Source of the DNA: Patescibacteria group bacterium
GTDB taxonomy: Bacteria > Patescibacteriota > Patescibacteriia > Magasanikbacterales > GWA2-37-8
Assembly (NCBI GenBank): GCA_004321885.1
Contig: SCQK01000013.1
Location: 111,929-175,928 of the forward strand
Reading direction: 5' to 3'
DNA length: 64,000 nt
Made by a program: the position numbers and the translations under genes. A model generated the notes under the pieces. It saw nothing but the letters and a program-made list of their open reading frames with translations, ran no database searches and was not told where the DNA came from. Positions 13,450 through 34,942 of this stretch are shown piece after piece (position 1 is the stretch's first letter; every line of letters begins with the position of its first letter).

Positions 13450-13561
13450 ACTTTCCCTCCGCTATCATCAATATACCCCAACCCGCTCAAAAAGTCAACG
13501 ATTGCGGGATCCCCGCCGCGTTTACAAAAAATCCCCGACTTAGCCGGGAATTTTTTACTTG

Positions 13562-13632
13562 CAGGGGCTGAGGGAATCGGACCCCCAACTTCTCTTTTGG
13601 AGAGAGGTGTTATACCACTTAACTAAGCCCCC
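13562..13632 (-). tRNA. tRNA-Trp (anticodon CCA)
   Basis: Reverse complement: GGGGGCT-TA-GTTA-AGTGGTA-TAAC-A-CCTCT-CTCCAAA-AGAGA-AGTT-GGGGG-TCCGATT-CCCTC-AGCCCCT-G. It is followed on the minus strand by the hairpin CCCGGCTAAGTCGGGG plus T6 (13520-13550). Confidence 0.8.
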
Positions 13633-13649: not shown

Positions 13650-13805
13650 TTATTTCGTCTCTTTGTGCATGGTATGTTTTTTGCAATGCCGGCAGAATTT
13701 TTTCATCTCCAAGCGGTTTTTGAGAGTTTTTTTGTTGCGGGTGCTGAAATAATTCGCGCGCTTGCATTGCGAGCATTCCAACTTGGCCAAATTATCTTGA
13801 GACAT
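13650..13805 (-). CDS. rpmG: 50S ribosomal protein L33, absent from the ORF track
   Basis: [51 protein letters not shown]. This has the typical L33 length, the CxxC...CxxC zinc ribbon and the KNxxxRLExKKyC motif. Confidence 0.9.
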
Positions 13806-13911: not shown

Positions 13912-14127
13912 CTTTTATTTCATACTGTATGGGGACGCGAAAGTGCGGGCGCGCCTAGGCTAACCGAGGCGCCTCTTTACAAGGAACCGCTGGCTGAAAA
14001 ACAACCGGTTCGGGGCAAGAGTCCCGAAACAAGCGCTTGGCGCACGGATTGTTTTTCAACCCCAGGTCGGCTGGGTCTGCCCGCAGTGTAGAGTTAAAAA
14101 CAGTCCCGACTTAGTCGGGACTGTTTT
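13912..14127 (+). ncRNA. candidate ~215-nt structured small RNA, divergent from rpmG; class unknown
   Basis: Plus-strand promoter TTGACA (13878-13883), N16, TATGAT. The transcript begins GGGGACGCGAAAGUGCGGGCGCGCC, contains multiple GC hairpins, and ends at the bidirectional terminator cagtcccgac-ttag-tcgggactg plus a U-run (14101-14127). No ORF. Confidence 0.3.
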
Positions 14128-14133
14128 GGCGCG

Positions 14134-14395
14134 AGCCGATGAGCGGATTTGAACCGCTGACCACCTCCTTCGCTTATACTTTATATTGCTATAAAGACTA
14201 GACTGTATCTTTGGCTTATCCTTTACCGGACTTAGCCACCCTTGTCAGTCGTTCGCCCGCGATTAGCGGGACGGTCTTGTCCCAATTTATTTAGGGATAT
14301 TAACCGTTATTCGGGATTCACCACGATGTTTCCATCGTGATGGGCGAGGCTTGCGGCTCACCATGGAGGTGCTCTACCAACTGAGCTACATCGGC
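14134..14395 (-). tRNA. tRNA-Thr (anticodon GGU, tentative) interrupted by a 189-nt group I intron in the anticodon loop
   Basis: Exon 1 at 14360-14395: GCCGATG-TA-GCTC-AGTTGGTA-GAGC-A-CCTCC-ATGGT. Exon 2 at 14134-14170: AA-GGAGG-TGGTC-AGCGG-TTCAAAT-CCGCT-CATCGGC-T. Acceptor and anticodon stems pair perfectly across the insertion. The spliced anticodon loop is AUGGUAA. Confidence 0.75.
14171..14359 (-). mobile_element. group I intron (ORF-less) in tRNA-Thr
   Basis: The 5' exon ends in U and the intron ends in G. Contains CACGATG-GAAA-CATCGTG (GNRA hairpin), CCCGC-TAATC-GCGGG, a P7-like GACTG/CAGTC pair, and AAAGATACAGTCT resembling the conserved group I S element. Confidence 0.6.
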
Positions 14396-14400
14396 ATTTT

Positions 14401-15060
14401 CTAATTTTTTTTATTTTCCAAAATCCTCATTAATTCATCTCTCATTTTTTTATTATGGTAATAAACTGTTAAAACTCCATGTCTACTTTTTTCGCGATAA
14501 GTACCTTTTCTAACAGACATTGTTATCGTGCTTTTGTAAAATTGATTTTTATTTACCTTTATTTGCCCCTTCCAAAACCTTAGCGCTTCAGTCACTGAAA
14601 TGTCATTGAATAACTGAAGGCTAAACTTAAGGTCTTTTCTTCTAATGGAAAAAAATTTAACTAAAAAGTCAATAAATTTCTTGACCAATCTTGGGTCAGT
14701 ATTTCCCAACCTAACTGTGCATTTATCCGCTTTTGTTCCCTCCCCCCAGTATAACCCAAGTCCAAAACCATATAAAATTCCCTCTTTTAATGTATGTGGA
14801 TACTTTATGACAAATGGATCACCGTTTGGGTTATTTTTTTTGTAAATAGCTTCACTGATAGATCTACACGTAATCGAATATTTTTCCATCCAATAACGTA
14901 TTTTATTTACTGAACATTCGAAAATATTGGCAATTTCTTGTGCCGACTTTCCCTGATTTTGATATAATTTTTGCAAAACACCTTTGCTTATCATATCACA
15001 AATTATATCATAGCCGACTGAATAGTACAAGTAACCCCAAGTAGATAATATGGTTGTCAA
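14401..15060 (-). CDS. LAGLIDADG-type homing-endonuclease-like protein with an N-terminal HTH, free-standing between two intron-bearing tRNA genes
   Basis: 219 aa, TTG start 4 nt after AAGG. HTH segment GKSAQEIANIFECSVNKIRYWMEKYSI. Single LAGLIDADG-like motif LYGFGLGLYWGEGTK followed by the typical ...GNTDPRLVKKFIDFLVKFF helix. AT-rich (~33% GC). Spacers to the flanking tRNAs are 5 and 9 nt. Confidence 0.55.
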   Translation of the reverse strand: MTTILSTWGYLYYSVGYDIICDMISKGVLQKLYQNQGKSAQEIANIFECSVNKIRYWMEKYSITCRSISEAIYKKNNPNGDPFVIKYPHTLKEGILYGFGLGLYWGEGTKADKCTVRLGNTDPRLVKKFIDFLVKFFSIRRKDLKFSLQLFNDISVTEALRFWKGQIKVNKNQFYKSTITMSVRKGTYREKSRHGVLTVYYHNKKMRDELMRILENKKN

Positions 15061-15069
15061 TGAACCTTG

Positions 15070-15363
15070 TGGGTGGAGTAGGATTCGAACCTACGAAGGC
15101 AGAGCCAGCAGATTTCATTTATCCAAAAGTTTCCTTCTAGCATGGACTATATCTTTATCCTATCCGCCAATCTGGCCGATAGGATACTCTGGTATCTAGT
15201 CTCTACGGCGCCCCCGACTTTGCCGGGGTTCCCACGGTATTAGCATGCCCGCCAGTTGGCGGATTTAGCTTTCACCGTTATCCCAGAGAGTTCATCCTAA
15301 AGTTACCTTTAGGAGCTGCGTTTCAACACAGTCTGCTCCAGTTGACCACTTTGGTATCCACCC
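15070..15363 (-). tRNA. tRNA-Tyr (anticodon GUA, class II) interrupted by a 212-nt group I intron
   Basis: Exon 1 at 15328-15363: GGGTGGA-TA-CCA-AAGTGGTCAAC-TGG-A-GCAGA-CTGT. Exon 2 at 15070-15115: AAA-TCTGC-TGGCTCTGCCTTC (long variable arm)-GTAGG-TTCGAAT-CCTAC-TCCACCC-A. Spliced loop CUGUAAA. Confidence 0.8.
15116..15327 (-). mobile_element. group I intron (ORF-less) in tRNA-Tyr
   Basis: Carries AAAGATATAGTCC (group I S element), GAGACTAGATACC (R/P7-like) and AAATCCGCCAACTGGCGGG (Q/P4-like). The 5' exon ends in U and the intron ends in G. Confidence 0.75.
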
Positions 15364-15382
15364 ATCTTCTTAAATTTTCTTG

Positions 15383-15454
15383 AGCCGCCTCAGGGATTCG
15401 GACCCTGGACCTACGGTTTACAAAACCGTTGCTCTACCGCTGAGCTAAGGCGGC
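15383..15454 (-). tRNA. tRNA-Thr (anticodon UGU)
   Basis: GCCGCCT-TA-GCTC-AGCGGTA-GAGC-A-ACGGT-TTTGTAA-ACCGT-AGGTC-CAGGG-TCCGAAT-CCCTG-AGGCGGC-T. TATAAT sits 4 nt upstream. Confidence 0.9.
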
Positions 15455-15515: not shown

Positions 15516-16454
15516 TCAAGCGGCTACTGCCCTAGTCACCTCTGGCGACCGCACTTCCATTTTTTTTATTCTTTCCCTAAAACCATCCAATTTGTTGTTG
15601 TCGGGATTGACCATCCGCAAACCATTCATTCCCTTCTCAGCCAGCTCTTTGTCGCCGCATATTATAGCAATTTCCGTCATTAAGTCAAGGTACTTGGGGT
15701 TTTGCGGTTCCAATTCCGCGGCCGCCACTATGGCCTCGCGCGCGGTTTTGGGCTGATTCACTCGCAAGAGCAGTTCGGCGATGTGGTAATAGCGCGGGGA
15801 AAAAGAATCATTAAGCAAAACCGCCTGCTGATAATACCCAATCGCTTCTTCCAAATCACCCTGGCTCTCGGCGATTTCGGCCAGCTTCACCAAAACGCTG
15901 TCATCATCAGGCTCCAGTTGAAGCAAAAAGCGATATGTCTGCCGCGCCTCCTCCAAAGAATTCTTAGCCGCGTAAGTGTCGCCCAATCCTCGGTAAGCGG
16001 AGGCGGCTTTGGGGTCAACTTTAACCGCGGAAATAAACAAATTTTCCGCTTTTTCAAAATCTCCTAATTTTAAGTACTGCTCAGCCTCCTGCACCAGATG
16101 GCTCAATTTGATTTCGCGCTCCTGCGGGTCTTGGTCTGCGCGCTGTTCTCTCGCCTTTACGCTTTGCTCGTGCCGCAACAGTGTTTCCACCTTGGCGAAA
16201 TACGAACGAAAGCGCGTCTGCGCGTCGCCCCAGACGCGCCCCAGGGGCCGCAGGGTCTTTTTTACGTTCTCGCGCAAACGATTGCCGCGCTCTTCCACTC
16301 GCTTTATAATTATTTCTTTTTTCTTTTGCAAAATTTTTTCTTCTGATAAATTATTCACGTCCAAATTGGCCACTCGCGGAAATTTACGCCCCAAAATTAC
16401 CGCTATAACGGCCGCGCAAACTACAATAATGACAAGCGGTATTATATAGAGCAT
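15516..16454 (-). CDS. membrane-anchored TPR-repeat protein (start at MLYIIPLVIIVV)
   Basis: N-terminal TM plus at least four TPR-like repeats (AENLFISAVKVDPKAASAYRGLGDTY, ARQTYRFLLQLEPDDDSVLVKLAEIA, etc). The upstream 46 codons of the ORF-track ORF run through a hairpin repeat. Confidence 0.65.
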   Translation of the reverse strand: MLYIIPLVIIVVCAAVIAVILGRKFPRVANLDVNNLSEEKILQKKKEIIIKRVEERGNRLRENVKKTLRPLGRVWGDAQTRFRSYFAKVETLLRHEQSVKAREQRADQDPQEREIKLSHLVQEAEQYLKLGDFEKAENLFISAVKVDPKAASAYRGLGDTYAAKNSLEEARQTYRFLLQLEPDDDSVLVKLAEIAESQGDLEEAIGYYQQAVLLNDSFSPRYYHIAELLLRVNQPKTAREAIVAAAELEPQNPKYLDLMTEIAIICGDKELAEKGMNGLRMVNPDNNKLDGFRERIKKMEVRSPEVTRAVAA

Positions 16455-34674: not shown

Positions 34675-34942
34675 ACTATGAATATAATCTCATTCGCTCA
34701 GAACTGAATTAATAAATTAATTCAGTTCGCTCGCTCATTTCGATTATAAACAAAAAATCTGTGTTTCCACAGACTAATCCCGCCAAAGGCGGGCAAGAGC
34801 GCAAATCGACCTATACTGTCATTCCGGCTTCCGAGCCGGAATCCAGTTCTTTTTTGCACCTCGGCAGGTAATTAAGCCCTTTCGGACACCTGCTGTCTAT
34901 GGTGACAATAATATACAGGAAGCATAAAAAAATGTCAAGAAT

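What the first reader, a model, noticed from the sequence alone, without database searches (positions are those of the whole stretch)
14134..15454. tRNA operon with two group I intron-containing tRNAs and a free-standing LAGLIDADG-like gene between them
tRNA-Thr(UGU), tRNA-Tyr(GUA) and tRNA-Thr(GGU) are co-oriented on the minus strand. The Tyr gene carries a 212-nt insert and the Thr(GGU) gene a 189-nt insert in the anticodon loop. In both cases the acceptor, D, anticodon and T arms pair perfectly across the insert, the 5' exon ends in U and the insert ends in G. Both inserts contain S-element-like AAAGATA(T/C)AGTC(C/T) and P7-like GACTR/YAGTC pairs. A 219-aa AT-rich ORF with an HTH plus a single LAGLIDADG-like motif (LYGFGLGLYWGEG...TDPRLVKKFIDFL) fills the Tyr-to-Thr spacer with only 5- and 9-nt gaps. 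Introns at anticodon-loop positions 35/36 and 36/37, intron sizes near the lower limit for group I, and a homing-endonuclease-like gene outside the introns form an unusual combination. The endonuclease may be a domesticated or trans-acting maturase or homing enzyme.
Basis: partly seen in the sequence, partly recalled or inferred. Interest (0 to 1): 0.7.

Follow-up and report, generated by a model that had tools for sequence, protein, structure and literature searches.

The report
tRNA-flanking homing-endonuclease-like gene plus introns
Two tRNA genes of an ultra-small (Patescibacteria) bacterium are split by self-splicing introns of already published kinds, but the gene between them belongs to an undescribed family of likely selfish DNA-cutting enzymes that always sits at the front edge of one particular tRNA gene.

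Summary
On the minus strand lie tRNA-Thr(UGU), tRNA-Tyr(GUA) with a 212-nt insert at 35/36, a 197-aa gene, and tRNA-Thr(GGU) with a 189-nt insert at 36/37. Both inserts are group I introns. The Tyr intron passes Rfam's threshold. The Thr intron fails it, but 48 homologues support P1-P9 with the P3/P7 pseudoknot by covariation. Both intron classes were published for Patescibacteria in 2026, so they are not new.

It is best read as a free-standing homing-endonuclease gene tied to this tRNA, possibly homing together with the intron. Its target and activity are untested.

The parts
15661..15688 (-). Promoter-like site upstream of the tRNA cluster (TTGACT, 16 nt, TATAAT, with TG)
   Evidence: Consensus scan, 11 of 12 matches. 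Function is not shown.
15382..15454 (-). tRNA-Thr(UGU), uninterrupted
   Evidence: ARAGORN. Rfam tRNA 71.2 bits.
15328..15363 (-). tRNA-Tyr(GUA) 5' exon, ending in U35
   Evidence: In-silico splicing gives a clean type-II tRNA-Tyr(gta).
15116..15327 (-). 212-nt group I intron at position 35/36 of tRNA-Tyr. It has no ORF.
   Evidence: Rfam Intron_gpI 61.7 bits against a gathering score of 50, full model 1-253. There is a U.G pair at the 5' splice site within CUGUG/CGCAG, and the 3' end is G. The same class is listed in PMC13011429 Table 1.
15070..15115 (-). tRNA-Tyr(GUA) 3' exon
15002..15010 (-). Extended -10 promoter-like element TGATATAAT, ending 7 nt before the ATG, which implies a leaderless mRNA
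   Evidence: Read from the sequence. The same arrangement occurs in 35 of 73 related loci against 1.1 expected from shuffles.
14401..14994 (-). 197-aa gene for an HTH plus LAGLIDADG-like protein (putative free-standing homing endonuclease). NCBI names it hypothetical protein EPN28_03575.
   Evidence: GC is 31-34%.
14833..14985 (-). N-terminal helix-turn-helix domain (residues about 4-54)
   Evidence: Weak Pfam HTH_28 and HTH_23 hits. PHROG 'HNH endonuclease' families match residues 4-53, E 7.5e-07. The AF2 model shows helices here.
14731..14775 (-). LAGLIDADG-like motif LYGFGLGLYWGEGTK. Glu85, the putative catalytic residue, is at 14740-14742.
   Evidence: G76, G78, G80, L81, Y82, W83, G84, E85, G86 and K88 are invariant in 28 sequences.
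14360..14395 (-). tRNA-Thr(GGU) 5' exon, ending in U36
   Evidence: The exons match those of intron-less tRNA-Thr(GGU) in related loci.
14171..14359 (-). 189-nt divergent group I intron at position 36/37 of tRNA-Thr(GGU). It has no ORF.
   Evidence: Rfam gives only 26.9 bits and the match is misaligned. On 48 homologues, P1-P9 with the P3/P7 pseudoknot is 94.8% paired, 33 of 51 pairs have compensatory changes, and slid controls give 30-44%. The class is listed in PMC13011429.
14134..14170 (-). tRNA-Thr(GGU) 3' exon
14096..14124 (-). Terminator-like hairpin ACAGTCCCGAC-TAA-GTCGGGACTGT followed by a T run, just after tRNA-Thr(GGU)
   Evidence: Read directly from the sequence. The simple scan did not list it.

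Best explanation
The locus is a Patescibacteria tRNA cluster arranged Thr(UGU)-Tyr(GUA)-[gene]-Thr(GGU).

**Introns.** tRNA-Tyr and tRNA-Thr(GGU) each carry a small ORF-less group I intron in the anticodon loop. These are presumed to self-splice. They belong to intron classes already published for this phylum.

**The gene.** The gene between the two tRNAs is a free-standing homing-endonuclease-type selfish gene. It has an N-terminal HTH DNA-binding module and one divergent LAGLIDADG-like catalytic domain, which by analogy with single-domain LAGLIDADG enzymes would act as a homodimer. Across the phylum it is locked to the 5' edge of tRNA-Thr(GGU).

It brings its own extended -10 promoter and starts translation on a leaderless mRNA. 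It ends inside the tRNA or a few nucleotides before it; in this window it ends 5 nt before. Its mRNA is therefore the 5' leader of the pre-tRNA, and the insertion need not silence the tRNA.

**Inferred mechanism.** The enzyme cuts tRNA-Thr(GGU) alleles that lack the gene. Recombinational repair from a gene-bearing donor then copies the gene, and with it the adjacent tRNA and any intron. This is intronless homing, or collaborative (trans) homing where the intron travels too.

**Shown here:** the anatomy, the intron structure by covariation, the strict linkage to this tRNA, the patchy presence with empty sites and truncated remnants, and the enrichment of intron with gene. **Inferred:** nuclease activity, dimerisation, target site, leaderless expression and splicing.
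For: **Introns.**
- Tyr intron: RF00028 at 61.7 bits, above the gathering score of 50.
- Thr intron: invariant U.G at the 5' splice site and invariant terminal G. All three P3 pairs, 3 of 4 P6 pairs, all four P8 pairs and 5 of 6 P9 pairs show compensatory changes. P4 and P7 are invariant.
- Both classes are published.

**Protein.**
- AF2 mean pLDDT 83.
- The top BFVD Foldseek hit is a phage LAGLIDADG endonuclease, E 3e-3.
- PF14528 LAGLIDADG_3 matches weakly in 9 of 28 members.
- The Glu of the GEG motif is invariant.
- The N-terminal HTH matches phage 'HNH endonuclease' PHROGs.

**Linkage to the tRNA.**
- In 80 of 80 genome loci the gene is followed by tRNA-Thr(GGU), within about 0-120 nt.
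- Most often the stop codon is tRNA nt 8-10. In a few loci it is the D-loop TAG.

**Selfish-element signs.**
- GC of 31-34% against 50-58% in the flanks.
- Of 46 intron-bearing loci found through the intron alone, 13 have an intact gene, 4 have fragments and 29 have none. One empty site has tRNA-Tyr, 25 nt, then tRNA-Thr.
- L088 and L095 hold 5'-truncated remnants that still end in the tRNA.
- L140, which lacks the gene, retains about 50 nt of the gene's 3' end. Similarity between L094 (no gene) and L131 (gene) starts exactly at tRNA nt 1.

**Expression.** An extended -10 lies 5-8 nt before the start codon in 35 of 73 loci, against 1.1 expected.

**Intron and gene together.** 53 of 80 gene-bearing loci have the intron, against 3 of 95 complete Patescibacteria genomes in PMC13011429.

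**Precedent.** Free-standing endonucleases and collaborative homing are established concepts (PMC3984707).
Against: - No significant sequence-profile match to any LAGLIDADG family for this protein.
- Foldseek against the PDB finds nothing.
- The model has an extra helix between strands compared with the canonical alpha-beta-beta-alpha-beta-beta-alpha core.
- Gene clusters by protein identity broadly follow the host tRNA type (CCA encoded or not), and identity stays at 50-68%. This fits long vertical retention under selection as well as it fits homing.
- L036 carries the gene beside an intron-less tRNA whose anticodon arm equals the spliced exons of intron-bearing loci. This argues against the intron insertion site being the target.
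- tRNA exons do not differ between loci with and without the gene, so no protective polymorphism is visible.
- The enrichment of intron with gene is not corrected for phylogeny.
- No activity data exist.
Confidence: 0.6

Rival explanations
1. The gene is a domesticated LAGLIDADG/HTH protein. It would be a DNA-binding regulator like WhiA, or an RNA chaperone or maturase, serving expression or maturation of tRNA-Thr(GGU) rather than its own spread.
For: - The family is conserved at 50-68% identity with many invariant residues.
- It is always at the same position, and its clusters by protein identity follow the host tRNA type.
- It supplies a promoter that would also drive the tRNA.
- Two thirds of gene-bearing loci have the intron.
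Against: - Presence is patchy. 29 of 46 intron-bearing loci lack it, and 27 of 80 gene-bearing loci have no intron to mature.
- Truncated remnants and deletion scars exist.
- GC is far below that of the host.
- The motif's acidic residue is invariant. From my own knowledge, WhiA has lost its catalytic residues.
Confidence: 0.2
2. This is collaborative homing in the strict sense. The enzyme's target would be the intron insertion site in the anticodon loop of intron-less tRNA-Thr(GGU). The intron would protect the carrier genome, and gene and intron would move together.
For: - The gene lies about 40 bp from the intron insertion site.
- 66% of gene-bearing loci carry the intron, against roughly 3% of complete genomes.
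- A single-domain, presumably homodimeric enzyme would suit the inverted-repeat DNA of an anticodon stem. This is inference only.
- There is precedent in phages (PMC3984707).
Against: - L036, L061 and L064 carry the gene next to intron-less tRNAs. L036 has the same anticodon arm as the spliced exons of intron-bearing loci.
- Whole clusters of intron-less loci whose tRNA genes encode the 3' CCA keep the gene.
- Most intron-bearing loci lack the gene.
Confidence: 0.25
3. The protein is not a LAGLIDADG relative at all. It would be an unrelated HTH DNA-binding protein whose C-terminal alpha/beta domain resembles LAGLIDADG enzymes only superficially.
For: - No Pfam, NCBIfam or PDB profile hit.
- Foldseek PDB top hits are IspF-like and OmpA-like folds at E above 0.02.
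Against: - The same holds in BFVD.
- PF14528 recurs weakly in 9 of 28 members.
- A GxGxxxGEG motif with an invariant Glu sits at the C-terminal end of a long helix, as in the family.
Confidence: 0.12

Closest known systems
Group I introns in Patescibacteria tRNA genes (Nakagawa et al., mSystems 2026, PMC13011429)
   Same: - The host phylum, the tRNAs and the positions match: Tyr(GUA) 35/36 and Thr(GGU) 36/37.
- The introns have no ORF.
- The Thr intron is missed by RF00028, and ARAGORN miscalls it as Arg(GCG). I saw exactly this here.
   Different: - That paper reports no gene flanking the Thr intron and concludes that most tRNA introns lack endonuclease genes.
- Here both introns sit in one cluster.
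- Some relatives of the Thr intron are 178-182 nt, just under the paper's 184-nt minimum.
Collaborative or trans homing: cyanophage S-PM2 F-CphI with the psbA intron, and T4 mobE with the I-TevIII intron (PMC3984707, PMC6083498, PMC2790892)
   Same: A free-standing endonuclease gene lies next to a gene interrupted by an ORF-less or defunct group I intron. The two elements are separable but tend to be found together.
   Different: - Those cases are in phages and in protein-coding genes, and they use Endo VII-like or HNH enzymes.
- Here the host is a cellular bacterium, the gene is a tRNA gene, and the protein is LAGLIDADG-like.
- The target site is unknown, and one locus (L036) argues against the intron insertion site.
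Single-domain LAGLIDADG homing endonucleases of CPR rRNA introns (I-ShaI, PMC11270868) and I-CreI/I-CeuI
   Same: - One LAGLIDADG-type domain of about 130 aa.
- Same phylum.
- Target in a conserved RNA gene.
   Different: - Those enzymes are intron-encoded and hit Pfam LAGLIDADG_1/2 clearly.
- This family is free-standing, has an added N-terminal HTH, and is too divergent for the HMMs.
Phage T4 SegB, a free-standing endonuclease inside the T4 tRNA gene cluster (recalled from the literature, not read here)
   Same: A free-standing homing endonuclease gene is embedded among tRNA genes and promotes inheritance of that region.
   Different: - SegB is a GIY-YIG enzyme.
- It is in a phage.
- It does not overlap a tRNA.
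WhiA (PDB 3hyi, 8dy9)
   Different: - WhiA has two degenerate domains and a C-terminal HTH.
- It is near-universal in Gram-positive bacteria and is a transcription factor (my own knowledge).
- This family has one domain, an N-terminal HTH, an invariant acidic residue and patchy distribution.

Membership tests
Group I intron (tRNA-Tyr insert) | Match to the curated covariance model RF00028 at or above the gathering score | tested here: met
   61.7 bits against 50, full-length model match.
Group I intron (tRNA-Tyr insert) | [quoted passage not shown] | tested here: met
   CUGU|G pairs with CGCAG, and the intron ends ...AAAUG.
Group I intron (tRNA-Thr(GGU) insert) | Match to RF00028 at the gathering score | tested here: not met
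   26.9 bits, with the match misaligned into the ORF. The same failure is reported for this class in PMC13011429.
Group I intron (tRNA-Thr(GGU) insert) | Conserved core: P3-P7 pseudoknot, P4-P6 domain and P8, supported by covariation | tested here: met
   - 51 pairs are 94.8% paired in 48 sequences, and 33 pairs have compensatory changes.
- All three P3 pairs covary. P6 shows GG/CC, CC/GG and AG/CU.
- Slid controls give 30-44%.
Group I intron (tRNA-Thr(GGU) insert) | U.G at the 5' splice site, terminal G, and a J8/7-P7 sequence like the consensus (AAGAUAYAGUC) | tested here: met
   The U.G pair occurs in 48 of 48 sequences and the last base is G in 48 of 48. AAGATACAGTC is nearly invariant.
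Group I intron (both inserts) | Guanosine-dependent self-splicing that yields ligated exons | not testable with these tools
   PMC13011429 shows it in vitro only for the related Asn and Asp 35/36 introns.
LAGLIDADG homing endonuclease | Significant match to a LAGLIDADG profile (Pfam LAGLIDADG_1/2/3, NCBIfam, PDB sequences) | tested here: not met
   - The window protein matches only weak HTH families.
- The family profile against the PDB finds none.
- PF14528 appears weakly in 9 of 28 relatives, best E 0.0055, below the cut-off.
LAGLIDADG homing endonuclease | The LAGLIDADG fold, with a motif helix followed by a beta sheet | tested here: inconclusive
- BFVD top hit is a LAGLIDADG endonuclease at E 3e-3.
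- Foldseek PDB is negative.
- There is an extra helix between strands.
LAGLIDADG homing endonuclease | A conserved acidic residue at the end of the motif helix | tested here: met
   Glu85 in GLGLYWGEG is invariant in 28 sequences.
LAGLIDADG homing endonuclease | Site-specific double-strand cleavage, and dimerisation of single-domain forms | not testable with these tools
Free-standing homing endonuclease gene (intronless homing) | Located outside any intron or intein, at a fixed genomic site | tested here: met
   It lies between the 3' exon of tRNA-Tyr and the 5' exon of tRNA-Thr. It is immediately 5' of tRNA-Thr(GGU) in 80 of 80 loci.
Free-standing homing endonuclease gene (intronless homing) | Sporadic presence, with empty sites and decayed copies (a cycle of gain, degeneration and loss) | tested here: met
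   - Of 46 loci, 13 are intact, 4 are fragments and 29 are absent.
- Truncated copies occur in L088 and L095.
- L140 has a deletion scar, and L094/L131 show a break at tRNA nt 1.
Free-standing homing endonuclease gene (intronless homing) | The enzyme cleaves alleles lacking the gene near its insertion site | not testable with these tools
   The target is unknown. No exon polymorphism separates loci with and without the gene.
Collaborative (trans) homing | An ORF-less intron lies in the gene next to the endonuclease gene | tested here: met
   True in the window, and in 53 of 80 loci.
Collaborative (trans) homing | The endonuclease target coincides with the intron insertion site | not testable with these tools
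   There is indirect evidence against it: L036 has the gene plus an intron-less tRNA with the same anticodon arm.

The most novel reading that the evidence does not exclude
[quoted passage not shown] That would be a living intermediate in the birth of mobile introns.

The endonuclease would be expressed from a leaderless mRNA that doubles as the pre-tRNA 5' leader and uses the tRNA's own U8-A9-G10 as its stop codon. RNase P processing and endonuclease translation would then compete on the same transcript.
Probability: 0.3. Interest if true: 0.75.

Novelty: new variant of a known kind. Interest (0 to 1): 0.58.

Why it matters
The introns add little, because they are members of classes published in 2026.

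The flanking gene is the useful part. It defines a large family that public annotation leaves as 'hypothetical protein' or generic HTH-domain protein, and whose biology can be read from its anatomy. It is a compact cassette of promoter, leaderless ORF and a stop codon borrowed from the tRNA, and it has colonised one specific tRNA gene across much of the Patescibacteria.

The recent survey concluded that tRNA introns there mostly lack endonucleases and that horizontal transfer is limited. It looked only inside introns. An endonuclease encoded next to the intron would change that conclusion for the Thr(GGU) intron.

If activity is confirmed, the family would also supply a new, very divergent branch of LAGLIDADG-like enzymes with an added HTH. 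It would also give a natural system for testing how mobile introns are assembled.

Tried and rejected
**Searches that found nothing useful**
- Pfam, NCBIfam and PDB-sequence HMM searches gave no LAGLIDADG hit for the window protein.
- Foldseek against the PDB was uninformative.
- The afdb50 library was not available.
- A tFind preprint and a CPR rRNA-intron paper do not mention this gene.

**Tool artefacts and my own errors**
- ARAGORN with introns miscalls the Thr gene as Arg(gcg) or His(gtg) by shifting the boundary. I corrected this using the U.G pair, the terminal G and intron-less homologues.
- My first shuffle control for the promoter motif was flawed because part of the motif was left unshuffled. 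I replaced it.
- The anticodon-stem column was wrong, because the regex matched the D loop. I ignored it.
- About half of the 15-mer metagenome matches were chance hits. I filtered them out by requiring flanking intron motifs.

**Ideas tested and dropped**
- Maturase for the Tyr intron: ARAGORN called no intron in any tRNA-Tyr gene of the related loci.
- Housekeeping gene filling the usual tRNA-Gly slot of the thrU-tyrU-glyT-thrT cluster: rejected because of empty sites and remnants.
- Protective substitutions in the tRNA exons of gene-bearing loci: none were found.
Full report
**1. What is there**

The window comes from a Patescibacteria (CPR) metagenome-assembled genome. The protein encoded at 14994-14401 is 100% identical to NCBI 'hypothetical protein EPN28_03575 [Patescibacteria group bacterium]'.

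On the minus strand the order is as follows:
- tRNA-Thr(UGU), 15454-15382
- tRNA-Tyr(GUA), 15363-15070, with a 212-nt insert at 15327-15116
- an AT-rich ORF
- tRNA-Thr(GGU), 14395-14134, with a 189-nt insert at 14359-14171
- an 11-bp hairpin with a T run, 14124-14096

Removing the inserts in silico gives clean cloverleaf tRNA-Tyr(gta) and tRNA-Thr(ggt).

**2. The inserts are group I introns of published kinds**

The Tyr insert matches Rfam Intron_gpI over the whole model at 61.7 bits, above the gathering score of 50. The Thr insert reaches only 26.9 bits and is misaligned.

I therefore collected 48 non-identical homologues of the Thr insert from related loci. I wrote a P1-P9 structure with the P3/P7 pseudoknot and counted pairs:
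- 94.8% of cells are paired, against 30-44% when partners are slid.
- 33 of 51 pairs have changes on both sides.
- No shuffle of 500 reaches the observed covariation.
- All three P3 pairs covary. P6 shows GG/CC, CC/GG and AG/CU. P2, P5, P8 and P9 covary heavily.
- P4 and P7 are invariant.
- The U.G pair at the 5' splice site and the terminal G are invariant.

The class is not new. Nakagawa et al. (mSystems 2026, PMC13011429) list tRNA-Tyr(GUA) 35/36 and tRNA-Thr(GGU) 36/37 introns in Patescibacteria. They note that the Thr introns are 'divergent', are missed by RF00028, and are miscalled by ARAGORN as Arg(GCG). I saw exactly that. They demonstrated self-splicing for the related Asn and Asp 35/36 introns, not for these two.

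**3. The gene**

*Start and composition.* The mechanical ORF of 219 aa starts at TTG 15060. Homologues and the NCBI model start at ATG 14994, giving 197 aa. GC is 31-34% against 50-58% around it.

*Sequence searches.* Pfam, NCBIfam and PDB-sequence profiles give only weak HTH matches. There is no LAGLIDADG hit.

*Structure.* The AlphaFold model has mean pLDDT 83. It shows an N-terminal helical HTH domain and a C-terminal alpha/beta domain that begins with a long helix carrying LYGFGLGLYWGEG.
- Foldseek against viral models puts a phage LAGLIDADG endonuclease first, at E 3e-3.
- Foldseek against the PDB finds nothing.

*Family-level hints.* Nine of 28 family members weakly match PF14528 LAGLIDADG_3. 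The Glu of GEG is invariant. The N-terminal HTH resembles HTH modules of phage 'HNH endonuclease' PHROGs.

I conclude that it is a very divergent LAGLIDADG-like protein with an added HTH. The assignment is probable, not proven.

**4. The decisive context**

The family has more than 1,100 clusters at 90% identity. None carries a functional name, and the source names that are given are Patescibacteria lineages or unclassified bacteria.

*Linkage to the tRNA.*
- In 80 genome loci found through the protein, every one has tRNA-Thr(GGU) downstream of the gene, within about 0-120 nt.
- In the largest class the ORF runs 10 nt into the tRNA, so its last codons are xxG-CCN-NNG-TAG. The stop codon is then tRNA nucleotides U8-A9-G10.
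- In a few loci the D-loop TAG serves as the stop.
- Where the ORF stops short, it sometimes ends in a duplicated tRNA-5'-like GCCnnnGTAG (L008, L028, L068, L080).
- In the window it stops 5 nt before the tRNA.

*Promoter.* An extended -10 (TGnTAnnnT) ends 5-8 nt, mostly 6, before the start codon in 35 of 73 loci. Shuffles predict 1.1. The window has TGATATAAT at 15010-15002, 7 nt before the ATG. The gene therefore appears to bring its own promoter, to be translated from a leaderless mRNA, and to be co-transcribed with the tRNA.

**5. Relation to the intron**

Of the 80 gene-bearing loci, 53 have the Thr intron and 27 do not. Most of the 27 fall in a few gene clusters whose tRNA genes encode the 3' CCA. 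Going by the record titles, these include Peribacteria and Saccharimonadia lineages.

I also scanned metagenomes with a 15-mer from the intron core, which is independent of the gene. This gave 63 true introns. Among the 46 with at least 700 nt upstream:
- 13 have an intact gene;
- 4 have fragments;
- 29 have none, for example tRNA-Tyr, 25 nt, tRNA-Thr in L159.

L088 and L095 hold 5'-truncated copies that lack the HTH and the catalytic motif yet still end in the tRNA. L140, which has no gene, keeps about 50 nt resembling the gene's 3' end. The L094/L131 pair is 88% identical from exactly tRNA nt 1 onward and differs upstream.

Gene and intron are therefore separable. They are nonetheless found together far more often than the roughly 3% intron frequency in complete genomes would predict (3 of 95). 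That comparison is not corrected for phylogeny.

ARAGORN called no intron in any tRNA-Tyr gene of the related loci. The gene is therefore not tied to the Tyr intron.

**6. Mechanism**

The best reading is a free-standing homing-endonuclease-type selfish gene specific for the tRNA-Thr(GGU) locus. The grounds are its fixed site in a conserved RNA gene, its foreign composition, its patchy presence with empty sites and decayed copies, and a conserved putative catalytic residue.

Whether it targets the 5' junction (intronless homing) or the intron insertion site (collaborative homing, PMC3984707) cannot be decided here.
- L036 carries the gene beside an intron-less tRNA whose anticodon arm equals the spliced exons. 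That speaks against the insertion site as the target.
- tRNA exons do not differ between loci with and without the gene.

A domesticated, WhiA-like role remains possible. The gene's clusters by protein identity broadly follow the host tRNA type, and the family is under clear purifying selection.

**7. Novelty and score**

The introns are already known. The flanking gene family and its anatomy are not mentioned in the papers I could search. That anatomy is the tRNA-supplied stop codon, the leaderless promoter and the strict tRNA-Thr(GGU) linkage.

The 2026 survey looked for endonucleases only inside introns, and concluded that most tRNA introns lack them and that transfer is limited.

I rate the whole as a new variant of a known kind, namely a free-standing endonuclease beside an ORF-less intron. 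Interest is moderate to fairly high, pending a cleavage assay.

Noticed in passing
window 14353-14355 with 14171-14173 (intron nt 5-7 with the last three intron nt); alignment A2 columns 13-15 with 291-293: A covarying 3-bp helix pairs the P1 loop (CGC) with the intron's 3' terminal GCG, including the terminal G. The observed pairings are CGC/GCG, CAC/GUG, CAU/AUG and CGU/ACG. Cells are 92% paired, and two of the three pairs show compensatory changes. It would close the whole intron next to the anticodon stem. It also explains why ARAGORN reads an Arg(GCG) or His(GUG) anticodon.
   Followed up: partly
L003, L004, L009, L021 and many others, about 45-50 of the 76 gene-bearing loci for which one search gives an offset: The ORF's stop codon is the tRNA's own U8-A9-G10 (TAG), or the D-loop TAG in L017, L020, L022, L038 and L050. 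RNase P cleavage at tRNA nt 1 would therefore leave a non-stop mRNA.
   Followed up: partly
L008:3300-3365, L028:3574-3640, L068:3574-3600, L080:734-840: Where the ORF does not overlap the tRNA, it still ends in a tRNA-5'-like GCCnnnGTAG. The real tRNA follows 14-92 nt later. This looks like a duplicated tRNA 5' end at the cassette's 3' boundary.
   Followed up: no
L118:39-440 and L195:753-915 (coordinates in the orientation used): Family-like ORF fragments lie directly upstream of tRNA-Thr(UGU) rather than Thr(GGU). This hints at a sister lineage that targets the other threonine tRNA.
   Followed up: no
Proteins P0131, P0135, P0142, P0148, P0158 and others: The 50%-identity representative library contains proteins of 350-820 aa made of 5-14 tandem copies of the module that forms this family's N-terminal HTH.
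   Followed up: no
L079, L072, L077: tRNA-Thr(GGU) introns of 178, 180 and 182 nt. These are slightly shorter than the 184-nt minimum reported for bacterial tRNA group I introns in PMC13011429.
   Followed up: no
L077:685-972 (complement strand): A tRNA-Asp(GUC) with a 213-nt intron lies about 2.6 kb from the gene and tRNA-Thr pair. This is a known Patescibacteria intron class.
   Followed up: no
window 13650-13805 and 13561-13632 (minus strand): Downstream of the cluster lie a 51-aa ORF that I read as ribosomal protein L33 (not searched) and tRNA-Trp. The locus is thus a remodelled version of the classical bacterial thrU-tyrU-glyT-thrT ... rpmG-trpT neighbourhood. It lacks tRNA-Gly and tuf at this position.
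   Followed up: no
window 34743-34920 (minus strand): Rfam L10_leader at 53.6 bits, above its gathering score. The rplJ operon leader is therefore far from the tRNA cluster in this genome.
   Followed up: no
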